From a virus, in the IMG/VR virus record IMGVR_UViG_3300042934_000619, positions 38,443 to 102,442 of that record: a stretch of 64,000 bases of DNA. The stretch is one strand, 5' to 3'. The notes beneath the pieces are model-generated. The model did not search any database and was not told where the DNA came from. It saw only the letters and a list, made by a program, of their open reading frames with translations. Below, piece by piece: positions 10,980 to 24,314 of this stretch. Position numbers and translations under genes: made by a program. Positions within the stretch are counted from its first letter, which is position 1. Each line of letters begins with the position of its first letter.

Positions 10980-11080
10980 GGGCGGGTAGCTCAATGGGCG
11001 CATGAGGAGGTGGCCACCTTCGATTGCATATGCCGATGGTAGAGCGCCGGAGGTTGCGGGTTCGAGTCCCGTCCCGTCCA
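10980..11080 (+). ncRNA. tRNA-like RNA: expanded D loop, no anticodon arm
   Basis: Acceptor GGGCGGG/CCCGTCC-A, TAGCTC..GAGC D stem, T arm GCGGG-TTCGAGT-CCCGT. Confidence 0.7.
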
Positions 11081-21079: not shown

Positions 21080-21154
21080 AGCGGGATAGCGCAGTTCGGT
21101 TAGCGCGCCGGGGCCATGACTCGGAGGTCGCAGGTTCAAATCCTGCTCCCGCAA
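21080..21154 (+). tRNA. tRNA-Met(CAT), initiator-like
   Basis: Full cloverleaf; 1:72 mismatch; loop GC-CAT-GA; T arm GCAGG-TTCAAAT-CCTGC; no encoded CCA. Confidence 0.75.
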
Positions 21155-21530: not shown

Positions 21531-21550
21531 CGGGAATTCGGAAAAAGCGT

Positions 21551-21580
21551 TTGACCTTGAGGGCGGGGACCCGATAGGTT
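21551..21580 (+). promoter_or_regulatory. HrdB-like promoter for the Y RNA/Ro60 cluster
   Basis: TTGACC-18 nt-TAGGTT. Confidence 0.6.
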
Positions 21581-21638
21581 GAACACATCGAACGACAGGT
21601 GCGAAGGGTACAGCTGCTTCTTTCGTTCGGAAGTTTTT

Positions 21639-21775
21639 CTGTCTGGTGCGCAGACGACGGATACTTCACTGTTAATGAAGAGGTCCGGGGTTCGAGTCCC
21701 CGCCCGCTGGTAAAAAGGTGGGTAGCTCAGTTGGTAGAGCACTTACGTTTCCGTTGTCGACTTGATCTCAGACAG
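21639..21775 (+). ncRNA. Y RNA 1 (YrlA-like; permuted tRNA-Asn GUU domain)
   Basis: Terminal stem CTGTCTG/CAGACAG with GGTGCG..TGATCT; inside, anticodon arm, T arm, closed acceptor, D arm. Confidence 0.8.
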
Positions 21776-21795
21776 TTCAATTCAAAAGTGCGCAA

Positions 21796-21870
21796 GCGTC
21801 CGGTGCGAAGGCAACGACGGCTACTTCTTTTGGTGAAATCACGCCGTCACGCCGTACTGATCTCGGACGC
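21796..21870 (+). ncRNA. Y RNA 2 (minimal, no tRNA domain)
   Basis: GCGTCCG-GTGCGAAG...TGATCT-CGGACGC; inner stem GACGGC/GCCGTC. Confidence 0.75.
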
Positions 21871-21879
21871 GTACAACTT

Positions 21880-22019
21880 GTGCCTGGTGCGCAGATGAGG
21901 AGTTCTTCGCCTTGGGAGCGGGAGGTCGCGGGTTCAAATCCCGTTCGGTCGGCAGAGCTGACCGGTAGCTCAGTCTGGAAGAGCGCCTACGATCGCCTCG
22001 TCGACTTGATCTCAGGCAC
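21880..22019 (+). ncRNA. Y RNA 3 (YrlA-like; permuted tRNA-Pro UGG domain)
   Basis: GTGCCTG-GTGCG...TGATCT-CAGGCAC; loop CTTGGGA, T loop TTCAAAT, D arm GCTC..GAGC. Confidence 0.8.
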
Positions 22020-22029
22020 GAAAATCAGA

Positions 22030-22150
22030 TGTCCGGTGCGCAGGACGACGCGTTCATCGATGGTTCGACCCCACCCGGGAGTCCCTCGCAAGAGGCTCGC
22101 TCCTGTTGCCCACTTGGGGGCAGCTCGCGTTTCCGATCTGATCTCGGACA
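22030..22150 (+). ncRNA. Y RNA 4
   Basis: TGTCCG-GTGCGCAG...TGATCT-CGGACA; inner hairpins including a GGTTCGA T-loop-like element. Confidence 0.7.
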
Positions 22151-22156
22151 GTACAA

Positions 22157-22308
22157 GGGTGCGTAGCTCAGAAGGTAGAGCGGCCCGAAAACGGACGGGC
22201 GGCGTGTCGAGACGGTTGCGGATGCACCGAATGGCTCTCGCAGGGTCTGTAGGGAAGCGCGTTTTCCAAGCTCGGCTCACGGCGCGGGTTCGAGTCCCGT
22301 CGCATCCA
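22157..22308 (+). ncRNA. tRNA-like RNA with ~80-nt variable-region insertion
   Basis: GGGTGCG/CGCATCC-A acceptor, D arm GCTC-AGAAGGTA-GAGC, T arm GCGGG-TTCGAGT-CCCGT. Confidence 0.7.
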
Positions 22309-22410
22309 CGGCACATAATCGGCTCCGACGTCCCTACTCGACTTCAGTCGTCGGAGAAACGAGGACTCTGGCATTGACGATGGTTATGTCCTCGTTGCCC
22401 CGGCGCAAGC

Positions 22411-22496
22411 CGGGGTTACCCGGGAGGCCCTGGCCAGGCACACGGCTAAAACACCGGCGCACCCGGTGCGAGACGGTTCAAGTCCGTCAACTCCCA
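22411..22496 (+). ncRNA. Degenerate tRNA-like element
   Basis: T arm GACGG-TTCAAGT-CCGTC, variable-arm-like hairpin CGCAC/GTGCG; acceptor and D arm ambiguous. Confidence 0.4.
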
Positions 22497-22498
22497 CT

Positions 22499-22585
22499 GG
22501 TTCCTGGTGCGAAGCCACCACGGGTACTTCATTTCTCTCTCAAAGAAACCCGAACCCCGTATCGGCACCCCTGATCTCAGGAACC
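22499..22585 (+). ncRNA. Y RNA 5 (pyrimidine-rich loop)
   Basis: GGTTCCTG-GTGCGAAG...TGATCT-CAGGAACC. Confidence 0.75.
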
Positions 22586-22631
22586 GCATGACCACCGGCA
22601 CGACCGGTGCGACAGGAAGGAAGATGGAGAC

Positions 22632-24314
22632 ATGGCGCGCTTCAACTCGCGTGGACACCGGGCGAAGCCTGCGGTGGCGACGGTAAGCAGTCCGATCGGT
22701 ACTGCCACGAAGAAGGCGAACACCCGTACGTTCGAAGGCGGCGCGGGATACACGCGTGATGCCAAGACGGAGCTGTTCCTGCGTGCGACCGGTGCGTTCC
22801 ACGGCGGCGAGGGCAGCTTCTACGAGTCCGCCGACAAGCGCGACAACCGGCTTCGTGAGCTGGTACGTACGATCGCGATCGAAGACCCGGACTGGGGATT
22901 CGAGTTCGCGCGCTGGCTCCGGTCCGAGGGTCACATGCGCACGGCATCGCTGATGTTCGCCGTCGAGTACGTGCACGAGCGACTCGATGCGGAAGCGCAG
23001 GAGCCGCGCACCACCAAGTACACCAACCGTCAGATCATCGACGTCGTATGCCAGCGTCCCGACGAGCCTGGCGAGATCCTCGCGATCTGGACGGCGTGGT
23101 ACGGGCGGAACATCCCGCAGTCGGTCAAGCGCGGCGTCGCCGACGCGGTTCGGCGTCTGTACAGCGAGCGCTCGCTGCTCAAGTACGACACGGACTCGAA
23201 GGCGTACCGCTTCGCCGACGTGCTGGATCTGACGCACCCGACGCCGTCCCCCGAGAAGGCCGCATGGCAGGGCCTGCTGTTCTCGTACGCCCTCAACCGG
23301 CGGCACGGACGTGGGGATGACATCCCCAGCACGCTGGATATCATCCGCAACAACGCCTCGTTCCGAGCGCGGGCGGCTGAGACGCACTCGTTGCTGTGCT
23401 CGCCGGACGCTCTGCGTGCAGCGGGCATGACGTGGGAGGACGCGCTGTCCCTCGCGGGCCAAGTAGGCGTCGACAAGCGCAAGGTCTGGGAGGCCATGAT
23501 CCCCTCCATGGGGATCATGGCGCTGATCCGCAACCTGCGGAACTTCGACCAGGCTGGCGTCTCCGACGAGGTGGCCATGACGGTCATGGAGCGCCTGGCC
23601 AACCCCGAGGAGATCGCCCGGTCCAAGCAGTTCCCGTTCCGGTTCCTCGCCGCGCACCGCGCGACCAAGGACTCCCTGCGGTGGGCGTGGCCGCTGGAGC
23701 AGGCGCTTGGTCACTCGCTGGTCAACGTCCCCCGGCTCGACGGCCGGACGCTGATCCTCGTCGACCGGTCGCCGTCCATGTTCCCGGAGTACGACCACTG
23801 GTTCCCGACGCTGAAGAAGTCGGACATCAGCCGCGCCGACCAGGCTGCGGTGTTCGGCGCCGCGCTGGCCGTCCGTGCAGAGCAGCCGACGCTCGTGGAG
23901 TTCGGCGGCGGCTCGCGGGTGATCACCTTCCAGCGCGGTACGTCCGTGCTGAAGCTGGTCGACAAGTTCTACCGGGACCCGGGTACGGACATCCCGAGCG
24001 CGGTGAAGAAGCATTACGACGGGCACGACCGGGTCGTCATCCTCACCGACGAGCAGACCCGCCCCGGGTCCCTTCCGTCGAACATGTGGCGGAGCTACGG
24101 TGGCATGCGTGAGACGGAGGTCAACGACCTCGTCCCGAAGCACGTCCCTGTATTCATGTGGAATTTCGCCGGTTACTCGGCGGCGGCCATGCCGTCCGGG
24201 AACGAGGCGCGGTTCCACCTCGGCGGACTCACCGACAAGGCATTCCAACTCATTCCGATTCTGGAATCCGGAGTGAATGGCAGCTGGCCCTGGGAACTGG
24301 ACAGCACACCCTGA
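22632..24314 (+). CDS. rsr: Ro60/Rsr TROVE-domain RNA-binding protein
   Basis: N-terminal EGGAGY, ALIRNLRNF, SKQFPFRF; C-terminal vWA with VDRSPSM, GTD, ILTDEQ; 560 aa. Confidence 0.9.
   Translation: MARFNSRGHRAKPAVATVSSPIGTATKKANTRTFEGGAGYTRDAKTELFLRATGAFHGGEGSFYESADKRDNRLRELVRTIAIEDPDWGFEFARWLRSEGHMRTASLMFAVEYVHERLDAEAQEPRTTKYTNRQIIDVVCQRPDEPGEILAIWTAWYGRNIPQSVKRGVADAVRRLYSERSLLKYDTDSKAYRFADVLDLTHPTPSPEKAAWQGLLFSYALNRRHGRGDDIPSTLDIIRNNASFRARAAETHSLLCSPDALRAAGMTWEDALSLAGQVGVDKRKVWEAMIPSMGIMALIRNLRNFDQAGVSDEVAMTVMERLANPEEIARSKQFPFRFLAAHRATKDSLRWAWPLEQALGHSLVNVPRLDGRTLILVDRSPSMFPEYDHWFPTLKKSDISRADQAAVFGAALAVRAEQPTLVEFGGGSRVITFQRGTSVLKLVDKFYRDPGTDIPSAVKKHYDGHDRVVILTDEQTRPGSLPSNMWRSYGGMRETEVNDLVPKHVPVFMWNFAGYSAAAMPSGNEARFHLGGLTDKAFQLIPILESGVNGSWPWELDSTP

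What the first reader, a model, noticed from the sequence alone, without database searches (positions are those of the whole stretch)
21639..22019. Two Y RNAs carry complete circularly permuted tRNAs with intact anticodon loops (Asn GUU, Pro UGG)
Seen: in unit 1 the order is anticodon arm CTTCA-CT GTT AA-TGAAG (21664-21680), AGGTC variable loop, T arm CGGGG-TTCGAGT-CCCCG, acceptor stem closed by a loop, then TA and D arm GCTC-AGTTGGTA-GAGC. Unit 3 repeats the order with TTCGC-CT TGG GA-GCGGG (21906-21922). Both tRNAs are opened at the D/anticodon junction and grafted onto the Ro-binding stem, so neither has a free CCA end. Known: YrlA has a tRNA-like D/T/acceptor module. Inference: keeping canonical 7-nt anticodon loops of two different identities suggests non-chargeable decoys for anticodon nucleases (VapC, PrrC or PARIS type) or for synthetases, or precursors that could be cut and religated into tRNA.
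Basis: partly seen in the sequence, partly recalled or inferred. Interest (0 to 1): 0.85.

Follow-up and report, generated by a model that had tools for sequence, protein, structure and literature searches.

The report
Phage Y RNAs with complete anticodon arms
Two of the five small Ro-binding (Y) RNAs of this actinophage carry a whole tRNA in rearranged order, including a conserved anticodon-like arm that published descriptions of this RNA family say is missing, but the "anticodon" itself is not conserved, so it mimics tRNA shape rather than one tRNA identity.

Summary
The window lies in a 102-kb phage genome. It holds five tandem Y-RNA-like units upstream of a Ro60/TROVE gene. Units 1 and 3 are YrlA-type.

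Each is followed by a 5-nt variable loop, a T arm, a closed acceptor hairpin, UA and a D arm.

A covariance model found the same arm in 93 YrlA modules from 42 other phage contigs and 80 actinobacterial genomes.

- **Stem:** it covaries strongly.
- **Loop:** among the 93 modules, selected for a 7-nt loop, it reads Y32-U33-NNN-R37-A38.
- **Triplet:** it is free (31 different ones).

One correction. The outer two base pairs of the stem come from the two bases after the D arm, not from the invariant UU of the UACUU handle. The tRNA is therefore opened between positions 28 and 29, not 26 and 27.

Un-permuted in silico, ARAGORN reads unit 1 as tRNA-Asn(GUU) and unit 3 as tRNA-Pro(UGG).

Chen et al. 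2014 drew this stem-loop as a variable arm. Wang et al. 2018 state that YrlA lacks an anticodon loop.

Function is unresolved. A shape-level full tRNA mimic fits best. An identity-specific decoy or a tRNA precursor is poorly supported.

The parts
21639..21778 (+). Y RNA unit 1 (YrlA-type). It has a Ro-binding handle plus a permuted tRNA module of Asn-like class A, with loop CUGUUAA.
   Evidence: Rfam YrlA 41.9 bits. Model R1 scores 139 bits. The minimum-free-energy fold contains the hairpin. Un-permuted, ARAGORN calls tRNA-Asn(GUU).
21666..21680 (+). Unit 1 anticodon-arm mimic. Positions 29-31 are 21666-21668, the loop (32-38) is 21669-21675, and positions 39-43 are 21676-21680.
   Evidence: Sequence. 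Covariation of the homologous columns.
21741..21743 (+). Unit 1 N26 (A21741) and positions 27'-28' (C21742, U21743). These two pair with G21680 and A21679 and complete the 5-bp anticodon stem.
   Evidence: Helix 5 is 94.6-96.3% paired, with GC/AU/CG/UA covariation.
21681..21740 (+). Unit 1 variable loop AGGUC, T arm (21686-21702), closed acceptor hairpin (21703-21722; 6 bp with loop GGUAAAAA), U8-A9, and D arm (21725-21740).
21798..21868 (+). Y RNA unit 2. It has the handle only, with a small U-rich loop and no tRNA module.
   Evidence: Fold. The GGUGCGAAGG...CUGAUCUC handle and the UACUUC motif are visible in the sequence.
21881..22019 (+). Y RNA unit 3 (YrlA-type). It has the handle plus a permuted tRNA module of Pro-like class B, with loop CUUGGGA.
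   Evidence: Rfam YrlA 35.8 bits. R1 scores 137.9 bits. Un-permuted, ARAGORN calls tRNA-Pro(UGG).
21908..21922 (+). Unit 3 anticodon-arm mimic. Positions 29-31 are CGC (21908-21910), the loop is 21911-21917, positions 39-41 are GCG (21918-21920), and positions 42-43 are GG (21921-21922).
21985..21987 (+). Unit 3 N26 (G21985) and positions 27'-28' (C21986, C21987), which pair with G21922 and G21921.
22030..22150 (+). Y RNA unit 4. It has the handle with a three-hairpin cargo that is not tRNA-like.
   Evidence: R1 scores 42.6 bits. Fold.
22499..22585 (+). Fifth Y-RNA-like unit (GGUUCCUGGUGCGAAG...GGGUACUUC...CUGAUCUCAGGAACC).
   Evidence: Read from the sequence. R1 did not report it at E<=0.01. 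Another first-reader note also lists it.
22632..24314 (+). Ro60/Rsr ortholog (TROVE domain), 560 aa.
   Evidence: Pfam TROVE, E 2.5e-21. It is 43-46% identical over 99% of its length to annotated 'Ro-like RNA binding protein' genes of Streptomyces and Gordonia phages.

Best explanation
Units 1 and 3 are YrlA-type Y RNAs. A conserved Ro60-binding handle carries, as its cargo (effector-binding) module, a complete tRNA body in circularly permuted order.

**Handle.** It consists of a terminal bulged helix with GGUGCG(C/A)AG on the 5' strand, a 9-bp extension, and the invariant linker UACUU.

**Order of the module.** Anticodon-stem positions 29-31, a 7-nt loop, positions 39-43, a 5-nt variable loop, the T arm, the acceptor stem closed by a loop, U8-A9, the D arm, N26, then positions 27-28. 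The last two bases pair back to 42-43. The result is a 5-bp anticodon stem assembled from two strands, and the handle leaves it as the third arm of a junction between positions 28 and 29.

**What is shown.**
- The architecture.
- Purifying selection on stem pairing, on loop length, and on U33, R37 and A38.
- Free variation of positions 34-35, and largely of 36.

**What is inferred.**
- The arm exists so that the module presents a full L-shaped tRNA, including the anticodon stem-loop shape, to a tRNA-reading partner that Ro is tethered to. Alternatively the partner matures or stabilises the RNA.
- The partner reads shape and the 36-37 dinucleotide, not codon identity.
Position-37 modification enzymes are therefore concrete candidates. 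This would extend the TruB and DusA modification already shown for YrlA.
- The arm is most simply the retained anticodon arm of the upstream tRNA in the dimeric-tRNA origin model of YrlA.
For: **The locus.**
- A Ro gene lies next to the RNAs.
- There are YrlA hits.

**The arm recurs and covaries.**
- R1 finds 114 Y RNAs in 43 phage sources and 84 in 80 actinobacterial loci.
- The three hairpin pairs are 91-92% paired, with pair types such as CG25/GC25/AU8/UA8.
- Pairs 42:28' and 43:27' are 94.6-96.3% paired, with four to six pair types each.
- The arm-only test gives a covariation score of 0.607 against 0.159, reached by 0 of 500 shuffles.

**The loop follows tRNA grammar.** In the 93 modules selected for a 7-nt loop, U33 is present in 89, A38 in 89 and R37 in 88. 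There are 31 triplets. U36 is followed by A37 in 51 of 57 cases, and G36 by G37 in 23 of 25.

**The module reads as a tRNA.** ARAGORN accepts 37 of 48 un-permuted modules.

**Literature.**
- YrlA is modified by TruB and DusA, and M. smegmatis YrlA is cut by RNase P and receives CCA (PMC4201824, sections 7-8 and 10).
- The dimeric-tRNA origin model is discussed in bioRxiv 10.1101/312249.
Against: - No experiment here shows that the arm folds or stacks as drawn. The two outer pairs are a very short helix.
- The invariant UU can also pair with 42-43 in 72-85% of sequences, so an alternative local 5-bp hairpin may coexist.
- The 36-37 coupling could be inheritance from two ancestral lineages. Only 3 well-supported independent contrasts exist (3 of 3 in the same direction, p 0.25).
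- About 40-45% of YrlA-type modules in the same loci have other structures at this position, such as a 5-nt loop and a longer two-strand stem.
- The proteobacterial-phage YrlAs examined lack the arm, so it is not required for YrlA function in general.
- The effector is unknown.
Confidence: 0.6

Rival explanations
1. Identity-specific decoy. The Asn-like and Pro-like loops act as bait. They would titrate or mis-direct host anticodon nucleases (VapC, PrrC, PARIS-type) or the cognate synthetases during infection, and they cannot be charged.
For: - The loops are canonical and exposed.
- The phage carries other unusual tRNA-like RNAs and a tRNA-Met with C33.
- Triplets differ between related phages, which an arms race could also produce.
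Against: - The same arm sits in chromosomal YrlAs of 55 of the 84 actinobacterial hits.
- The triplets are 31 different ones, including 9 with A34 that match no normal bacterial tRNA.
- Differences between close relatives are single transitions, as expected for drift.
- Nothing in the searched part of the locus links it to a toxin.
Confidence: 0.12
2. The hairpin is only a structural strut or an evolutionary relic. This covers the 'V' (variable) arm of Chen et al. 2014, or a leftover of an ancestral tRNA. It would stabilise the junction, and nothing would read it as an anticodon arm.
For: - Chen 2014 labelled it V (PMC4201824, section 6).
- Many YrlAs have other structures at this position or none.
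- The triplet is free to vary.
Against: - **V-arm topology fails.** Two covarying base pairs to the post-D strand lie between the hairpin and the 5-nt variable loop.
- **A strut would not need this loop.** It would not require exactly 7 nt with U33, R37 and A38 in 95-96% of the 93 modules chosen for a 7-nt loop. Nor would it need only UA or GG at positions 36-37.
Confidence: 0.17
3. Precursor of a working tRNA. The handle would be excised and the ends ligated at 28/29, and the acceptor loop opened by RNase P. This would yield tRNA-Asn and tRNA-Pro, as with the permuted tRNA genes of Cyanidioschyzon.
For: - Un-permuted modules pass ARAGORN.
- M. smegmatis YrlA is cut by RNase P and receives CCA (PMC4201824, section 8).
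- Wang 2018 raises such processing as a possibility.
- Some acceptor loops encode ACCA straight after a 7-bp stem.
Against: - Bacteria have no known splicing endonuclease for such a junction.
- The triplets include non-decoding types (A34), and they drift.
- The handle is under strong selection as a Ro-binding site (helices 1-3).
- Unit 1 has a 6-bp acceptor stem and unit 3 a 9-bp closed one.
- In M. smegmatis the two halves stay bound to Rsr.
Confidence: 0.03
4. They are ordinary tRNA genes. The 5' half of each unit would be a normal tRNA whose acceptor stem uses the Y RNA 5' end, as GenBank annotates for Gordonia phage VanLee gene 125, 'tRNA-Arg(tct)'.
For: - ARAGORN calls a tRNA on the 5' half of about 35 of 198 Y RNA hits.
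- GenBank annotations do the same.
Against: - Pairing of the Ro 5' strand with the acceptor 3' strand is 37-63% in every register, which is background. The module's own acceptor hairpin is 93-99% paired.
- ARAGORN finds no tRNA in units 1 or 3.
- The Rfam tRNA model gives only a partial 26.8-bit hit, below its threshold of 29.
Confidence: 0.03

Closest known systems
YrlA (Y RNA-like A; Rfam RF02553). Chen et al. 2014, RNA 20:1715; crystal structure of the S. Typhimurium tRNA-like domain, Wang et al. 2018.
   Same: - It is encoded upstream of rsr/Ro60 on the same strand.
- It has a Ro-binding handle.
- It has a T arm, an acceptor stem closed by a loop, U8-A9 and a D arm in permuted order.
- It keeps the tRNA tertiary-pair nucleotides.
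   Different: - The solved S. Typhimurium YrlA has a continuous two-strand 'anticodon stem' and is stated to lack an anticodon loop.
- Here the stem is 2 bp from two strands plus a 3-bp local hairpin with a canonical 7-nt loop.
- The Rfam model scores these units below its gathering cut-off: 41.9 and 35.8 bits against 69.
M. smegmatis YrlA (Chen et al. 2014)
   Same: - It is an actinobacterial YrlA of about 147 nt with a 7-bp acceptor stem.
- Unnamed Mycobacteriales genomes searched here hold a 148-nt homolog with a CCG-CUUCCAA-CGG hairpin.
   Different: - That RNA is shown to be cut by RNase P and given CCA.
- Units 1 and 3 have 6-bp and 9-bp acceptor hairpins, and no processing data exist for them.
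- The paper draws the upstream stem-loop as a variable arm.
Circularly permuted tRNA genes (Cyanidioschyzon merolae, Soma et al. 2007; some archaea)
   Same: - The 3' half of the tRNA precedes the 5' half.
- The acceptor stem is closed by a loop in the primary transcript.
   Different: - Those are processed through a circular intermediate into working tRNAs, using a bulge-helix-bulge motif and a splicing endonuclease.
- Here the ends form a conserved Ro-binding handle, and the triplet is not conserved.
tmRNA and viral tRNA-like structures (TYMV TLS)
   Same: They are L-shaped tRNA mimics used for something other than decoding.
   Different: Those have free CCA ends and are aminoacylated. tmRNA replaces the anticodon arm with SmpB. 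Here the anticodon arm is present and the CCA end is absent.

Membership tests
Y RNA (Ro60-associated ncRNA) | Encoded next to a Ro60/TROVE gene and on the same strand | tested here: met
   The TROVE ORF at 22632-24314 lies 0.6-1.0 kb downstream of units 1 and 3. The same arrangement holds in 42 phage and 80 bacterial loci.
Y RNA (Ro60-associated ncRNA) | The 5' and 3' ends form a conserved bulged helix with a GGUCCGA-like 5' strand | tested here: met
   CUGGUGCG(C/A)AG pairs with CUUGAUCUCAG and leaves a bulged base. Helices 1 and 2 are 92-99% paired with covariation.
Y RNA (Ro60-associated ncRNA) | Physically bound by Ro60 | not testable with these tools
   This needs co-immunoprecipitation.
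YrlA | T arm, loop-closed acceptor stem, UA and D arm in that order inside the handle | tested here: met
   Alignment to RF02553. Helices 6-8 are 92-99% paired.
YrlA | Reaches the Rfam RF02553 gathering score | tested here: not met
   The scores are 41.9 and 35.8 bits against 69. The loss comes from the region where the hairpin replaces the model's 7-bp stem.
YrlA as described from the solved structure | No anticodon loop; the anticodon stem is formed only by the 5' and 3' strands | tested here: not met
   A covarying 3-bp hairpin with a 7-nt loop is present.
Canonical tRNA gene | Contiguous cloverleaf with open acceptor ends, recognised by tRNA finders | tested here: not met
   ARAGORN finds nothing in 21639-22019. 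Rfam tRNA gives a partial 26.8-bit hit, below its threshold of 29. The 5'-half acceptor pairing is at background level.
Circularly permuted tRNA | All four arms present, giving a canonical tRNA after rotating the sequence | tested here: met
   ARAGORN calls the un-permuted modules Asn(GUU) at 75 nt and Pro(UGG) at 77 nt, and of 48 homologs as tRNAs.
Circularly permuted tRNA gene (processed precursor) | Processing junction (bulge-helix-bulge) and a mature tRNA product | not tested
   No bulge-helix-bulge search was made. Proof would need RNA-seq junction reads.
Class II tRNA variable arm (the 'V' label of Chen 2014) | The stem-loop lies 3' of the whole anticodon-stem 3' strand (after position 43) | tested here: not met
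   Two covarying pairs to the post-D strand (42:28' and 43:27') lie between the hairpin and the 5-nt variable loop.

The most novel reading that the evidence does not exclude
In Actinobacteria and their phages, YrlA is a complete tRNA held on Ro. In homologs that are opened by RNase P and given CCA, as shown for M. smegmatis, it would be a two-piece tRNA. Its anticodon loop would be a genuine substrate or ligand of enzymes that read the anticodon loop, such as the t6A37 machinery, TrmD, or nucleases that cut the anticodon stem-loop. Ro-YrlA would then sense, titrate or recruit that machinery. In the phage this could buffer or exploit tRNA damage and modification during infection.
Probability: 0.2. 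Interest if true: 0.8.

Novelty: new variant of a known kind. Interest (0 to 1): 0.58.

Why it matters
- **It revises the description of YrlA.** YrlA is the model bacterial Y RNA, and its effector is still unknown. The published picture is a tRNA mimic without an anticodon loop. In a large actinobacterial and phage branch the mimic is complete. It has a covarying 5-bp anticodon stem built from two strands and a loop that obeys tRNA loop rules.
- **It narrows the search for the partner.** The partner should read the whole tRNA body, or position 37.
- **It gives testable predictions.** U1 A21674 would be the t6A37 site and U3 G21916 the m1G37 site.
- **It bears on origin.** The retained arm supports the dimeric-tRNA origin model.
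- **It marks the attachment point.** The Ro handle joins the tRNA body at 28/29.
- **It has a practical consequence.** tRNA finders call the 5' halves of such Y RNAs as tRNA genes. Deposited phage genomes carry these calls, for example VanLee gene 125 and LuckySocke gene 36. This inflates phage tRNA repertoires.

Tried and rejected
Its outer two pairs use the invariant UU. They are 15-28% unpaired and show almost no changes on both sides. The two-strand pairing explains the data better.
2. **5' half as a real tRNA.** ARAGORN calls it in about 35 cases, but the acceptor pairing is at background level.
3. **Recent capture from tRNA-Asn or tRNA-Pro.** The un-permuted units are 70-81% identical to many isotypes found in the loci, with no preference for Asn or Pro.
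4. **N26:N44 coupling.** The result is mixed (G/A 23, A/A 20, A/U 19, G/U 15), so I make no claim.
5. **Phylogenetically independent test of the G36-G37 coupling.** The tree of 130-nt RNAs is too weak. There are only 3 supported contrasts, p 0.25.
6. **Universality.** The YrlAs of Xanthomonas phage MET23-P3 and Caulobacter phage CcrColossus lack the canonical hairpin.
7. **Literature.**
   - The Annual Review 2020 (PMC10870794) is not held.
   - No supplements are held for Chen 2014, so I could not compare their drawn M. smegmatis structure base by base.
   - No paper in the library links YrlA to an anticodon loop, apart from the statement that it lacks one.
8. **Promoter scan.** The tool does not list the TTGACC-18-TAGGTT site at about 21553-21582. 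It is visible in the sequence only.

Full report
**What the window is.**
- The window is part of a complete 102,442-bp phage genome with direct terminal repeats.
- Around the finding lie replication genes: family A DNA polymerase, an SNF2 helicase, a PD-(D/E)XK nuclease and an AAA_24 protein.
- A tRNA-Met and a small ORF follow. Then comes a non-coding stretch at 21550-22630, and then a 560-aa TROVE/Ro60 gene at 22632-24314 (E 2.5e-21).
- The Ro protein is 43-46% identical over its whole length to annotated 'Ro-like RNA binding proteins' of Streptomyces and Gordonia phages. It is up to 58% identical to chromosomal genes of Streptomyces and other actinomycetes.
- The host is therefore most likely an actinomycete.

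**The observation.**
- The non-coding stretch holds five tandem units with one common handle. The handle has a terminal helix with CUGGUGCG(C/A)AG on the 5' side and CUUGAUCUCAG on the 3' side, a second helix, and then UACUUC. This closely resembles the Ro-binding helix of Y RNAs.
- Units 1 (21639-21778) and 3 (21881-22019) match Rfam YrlA below threshold: 41.9 and 35.8 bits against a gathering score of 69. Nothing reaches the gathering score.
- Inside each handle the order is: a small hairpin with a 7-nt loop, AGGUC, a T arm, a hairpin in the acceptor position, UA, and a D arm.
- The minimum-free-energy fold of unit 1 contains the hairpin. That of unit 3 chooses a competing pairing. Single-sequence folding is therefore not decisive.

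**Comparative evidence.**
- Using the Ro protein I fetched 43 related phage contigs and, with a Ro alignment, 80 actinobacterial loci.
- A covariance model (R1) was built from 12 sequences. It found 114 Y RNAs in the phage set and 84 in the bacterial set, almost all just upstream of Ro on the same strand.
- 38 phage and 55 bacterial modules have the same layout: a 3-bp hairpin, exactly 7 loop bases, two more bases, a variable loop of 5 nt (4 nt in 12 of the 93), then the T arm.
- The three hairpin pairs are 91-92% paired, with pair types such as CG25/GC25/AU8/UA8.
- In the bacterial set, which contributed nothing to the model, the five pairs of the arm alone are 94% paired against 62% in shuffles. 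The covariation score is 0.607 against 0.159 (0 of 500 shuffles). Slid controls give 20-50%.
- These alignments were fitted to the model. That favours its structure somewhat. The flanks that anchor these columns (D stem, T stem, UACUU) are nearly invariant, so there is little room for this.

**Where the tRNA is opened.**
In it, the bases at tRNA positions 42-43 would pair with the UU of UACUU.
- That UU never varies, and the pairs fail in 15-28% of sequences. Changes on both sides are almost absent: none at one pair, 4 cells at the other.
- The same two bases instead covary with the two bases that follow the D arm and N26: GC 29, AU 27, CG 10, GU 4, UA 2, UG 2, with only 1 unpaired; and GC 39, CG 11, AU 8, UA 4. 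The bacterial set gives the same picture.
- So the anticodon stem is composite. Pairs 27:43 and 28:42 use the strand that continues from the D arm, as in a real tRNA. Pairs 29:41 to 31:39 are the local hairpin. The handle leaves between positions 28 and 29.
- UACUU belongs to the handle. It is present in all five units, including those without a tRNA module, and even in a Xanthomonas phage YrlA.
- The local alternative remains pairable in most sequences and may be a minor conformer.

**Is it a whole tRNA?**
- I rotated each module in silico into the order: acceptor 5' strand, D arm, N26, 27-28, hairpin, 42-43, variable loop, T arm, acceptor 3' strand.
- ARAGORN then called 37 of 48 modules as full-length tRNAs with the triplet at the canonical place. 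Unit 1 became Asn(GUU) at 75 nt and unit 3 became Pro(UGG) at 77 nt.
- On the native sequence ARAGORN finds nothing in units 1 or 3.

**Loop grammar.**
- In the 93 canonical modules, position 33 is U in 89, position 38 is A in 89, position 37 is a purine in 88, and position 32 is a pyrimidine in 81.
- Positions 34, 35 and 36 have entropies of 1.88, 1.83 and 1.41 bits, and 31 different triplets occur.
- This is the conservation pattern of real anticodon loops.
- U36 is followed by A37 in 51 of 57 cases, and G36 by G37 in 23 of 25.
- From established tRNA biology (my own knowledge), U36-A37 is the determinant for t6A37 and G36-G37 is the determinant for m1G37 by TrmD.
- I could not show that this coupling is independent of shared ancestry. 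There are only three well-supported contrasts, all in the same direction, p 0.25.
- The window's two units represent the two commonest classes: CUNNUAA and NUNNGGA.

**What the triplet variation means.**
- Close relatives differ by single transitions: ACU in L026 and L030 against AUU in L027; GUU against AUU among the window, L007, L008 and L009.
- Nine loops have A34.
- The arm is as common in chromosomal YrlAs as in phage ones.
- This argues against selection for a particular amino-acid identity. It therefore argues against decoys aimed at a specific anticodon nuclease or synthetase, and against working tRNA precursors.
- It fits selection for shape plus the 36-38 bases.

**Comparison with the literature.**
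- Chen et al. [quoted passage not shown]
- They discuss an anticodon arm only for D. radiodurans Yrn1.
- Wang et al. 2018 (bioRxiv 10.1101/312249) solved the S. Typhimurium domain. They state that YrlA 'lacks the anticodon loop' and has a kinked two-strand anticodon stem.
- They also discuss the Sim and Wolin model in which YrlA arose from a dimeric tRNA transcript, with the T arm coming from the first tRNA and the D arm from the second. That model predicts an anticodon arm just upstream of the variable loop and T arm, which is what is seen.
- The V-arm reading does not fit the data here, because the two covarying pairs to the post-D strand lie between the hairpin and the 5-nt variable loop.
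- I found no paper in the library that describes an anticodon arm in YrlA. The 2020 review was not available.

**Processing.**
- In M. smegmatis, YrlA is cut by RNase P, trimmed and given CCA, and both halves stay on Rsr (PMC4201824, section 8).
- In a sample of 121 genomes of the order that holds the Nocardia locus L120, 10 have an R1 match. Two of these genomes each hold a 148-149-nt YrlA with a CCG-CUUCCAA-CGG (or UCG) hairpin.
- Acceptor hairpins in the family are mostly 7-8 bp, and a few loops begin with ACCA directly after a 7-bp stem.
- Unit 1 has 6 bp with loop GGUAAAAA, and unit 3 has 9 bp with loop AGA. For these two units, cleavage is an open question.

**Rival reading: ordinary tRNAs.**
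- ARAGORN calls a tRNA on the 5' half of about 35 Y RNAs, and GenBank has such calls.
  - Gordonia phage VanLee gene 125, 'tRNA-Arg(tct)' at 65454-65525, is the 5' half of a 114-bit YrlA at 65454-65590.
  - Streptomyces phage LuckySocke gene 36, 'tRNA-Ser(gct)', overlaps a 40.6-bit hit.
- Across the family, pairing of the Y RNA 5' end with the acceptor 3' strand is 37-63% in every register. The module's own acceptor hairpin is 93-99% paired.
- These calls are therefore artefacts of a good T arm plus a good anticodon arm.

**Limits.**
- The arm is not universal. About 40-45% of YrlA-type modules in these loci have something else at this position, for example a 3-bp hairpin with a 5-nt loop followed by a 4-bp two-strand stem.
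- The YrlAs of Xanthomonas phage MET23-P3 and Caulobacter phage CcrColossus have no canonical hairpin.
- All functional statements are inference. No binding, modification or processing was measured.

**Verdict.**
- The structural interpretation is right apart from the opening point.
- The functional inference is not supported by the conservation pattern but is not excluded.
- This is a known RNA family (YrlA) with a variant architecture. The literature either overlooked that architecture or labelled it differently.

Noticed in passing
window 22157-22308 (+): A tRNA-like RNA lies between Y units 4 and 5. It has normal acceptor, D and T arms and a G3:U70 pair, but about 95 nt sit where the anticodon arm should be (Rfam tRNA 38.9 bits). 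A 76-81% identical stretch occurs, mostly unannotated (one record has a hypothetical protein over it), in Streptomyces phages Alone3, LuckySocke, GiJojo, pSt2308, Comrade and others.
   Followed up: partly
window 10980-11080 (+): A second tRNA-like RNA (Rfam tRNA 39.4 bits) has a 44-nt insert after the D-stem 5' strand and a collapsed anticodon arm.
   Followed up: no
window 21080-21154 (+): tRNA-Met(CAU) whose anticodon loop reads G32-C33-CAU-G37-A38, so it lacks the near-universal U33 (alignment).
   Followed up: no
window 22499-22585 (+): A fifth Y-RNA-like unit with the same handle and UACUUC motif, directly upstream of the Ro start. R1 did not report it at E<=0.01.
   Followed up: partly
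L130:1204-1340 (Gordonia phage VanLee 65454-65590); L131:3270-3414 (Streptomyces phage LuckySocke): Deposited annotations call the 5' halves of YrlA RNAs tRNA genes: VanLee gene 125 tRNA-Arg(tct) and LuckySocke gene 36 tRNA-Ser(gct). ARAGORN does the same on about 35 of 198 Y RNAs in the fetched loci.
   Followed up: yes
A2/A4 alignments; for example L037:2535-2676, L066, L072, L060: Several YrlA acceptor hairpins have a 7-bp stem followed directly by ACCA in the loop. This amounts to an encoded discriminator plus CCA, and it hints that RNase P opening is planned for in some homologs.
   Followed up: partly
L008:2823-2953, L011:2748-2883, L139:1501-1649, L140:1501-1648: A subgroup of YrlA modules has a different D arm (GUCGAGUGGCC.AAGAC or GUCGACCAGCGGCC.AGGUC) that resembles class II tRNAs. 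The modules may derive from more than one tRNA type.
   Followed up: no
window 21553-21582 (+): TTGACC-18 nt-TAGGTT lies upstream of unit 1. It is a plausible actinobacterial promoter for the whole Y RNA/Ro operon. The consensus scan does not list it.
   Followed up: no
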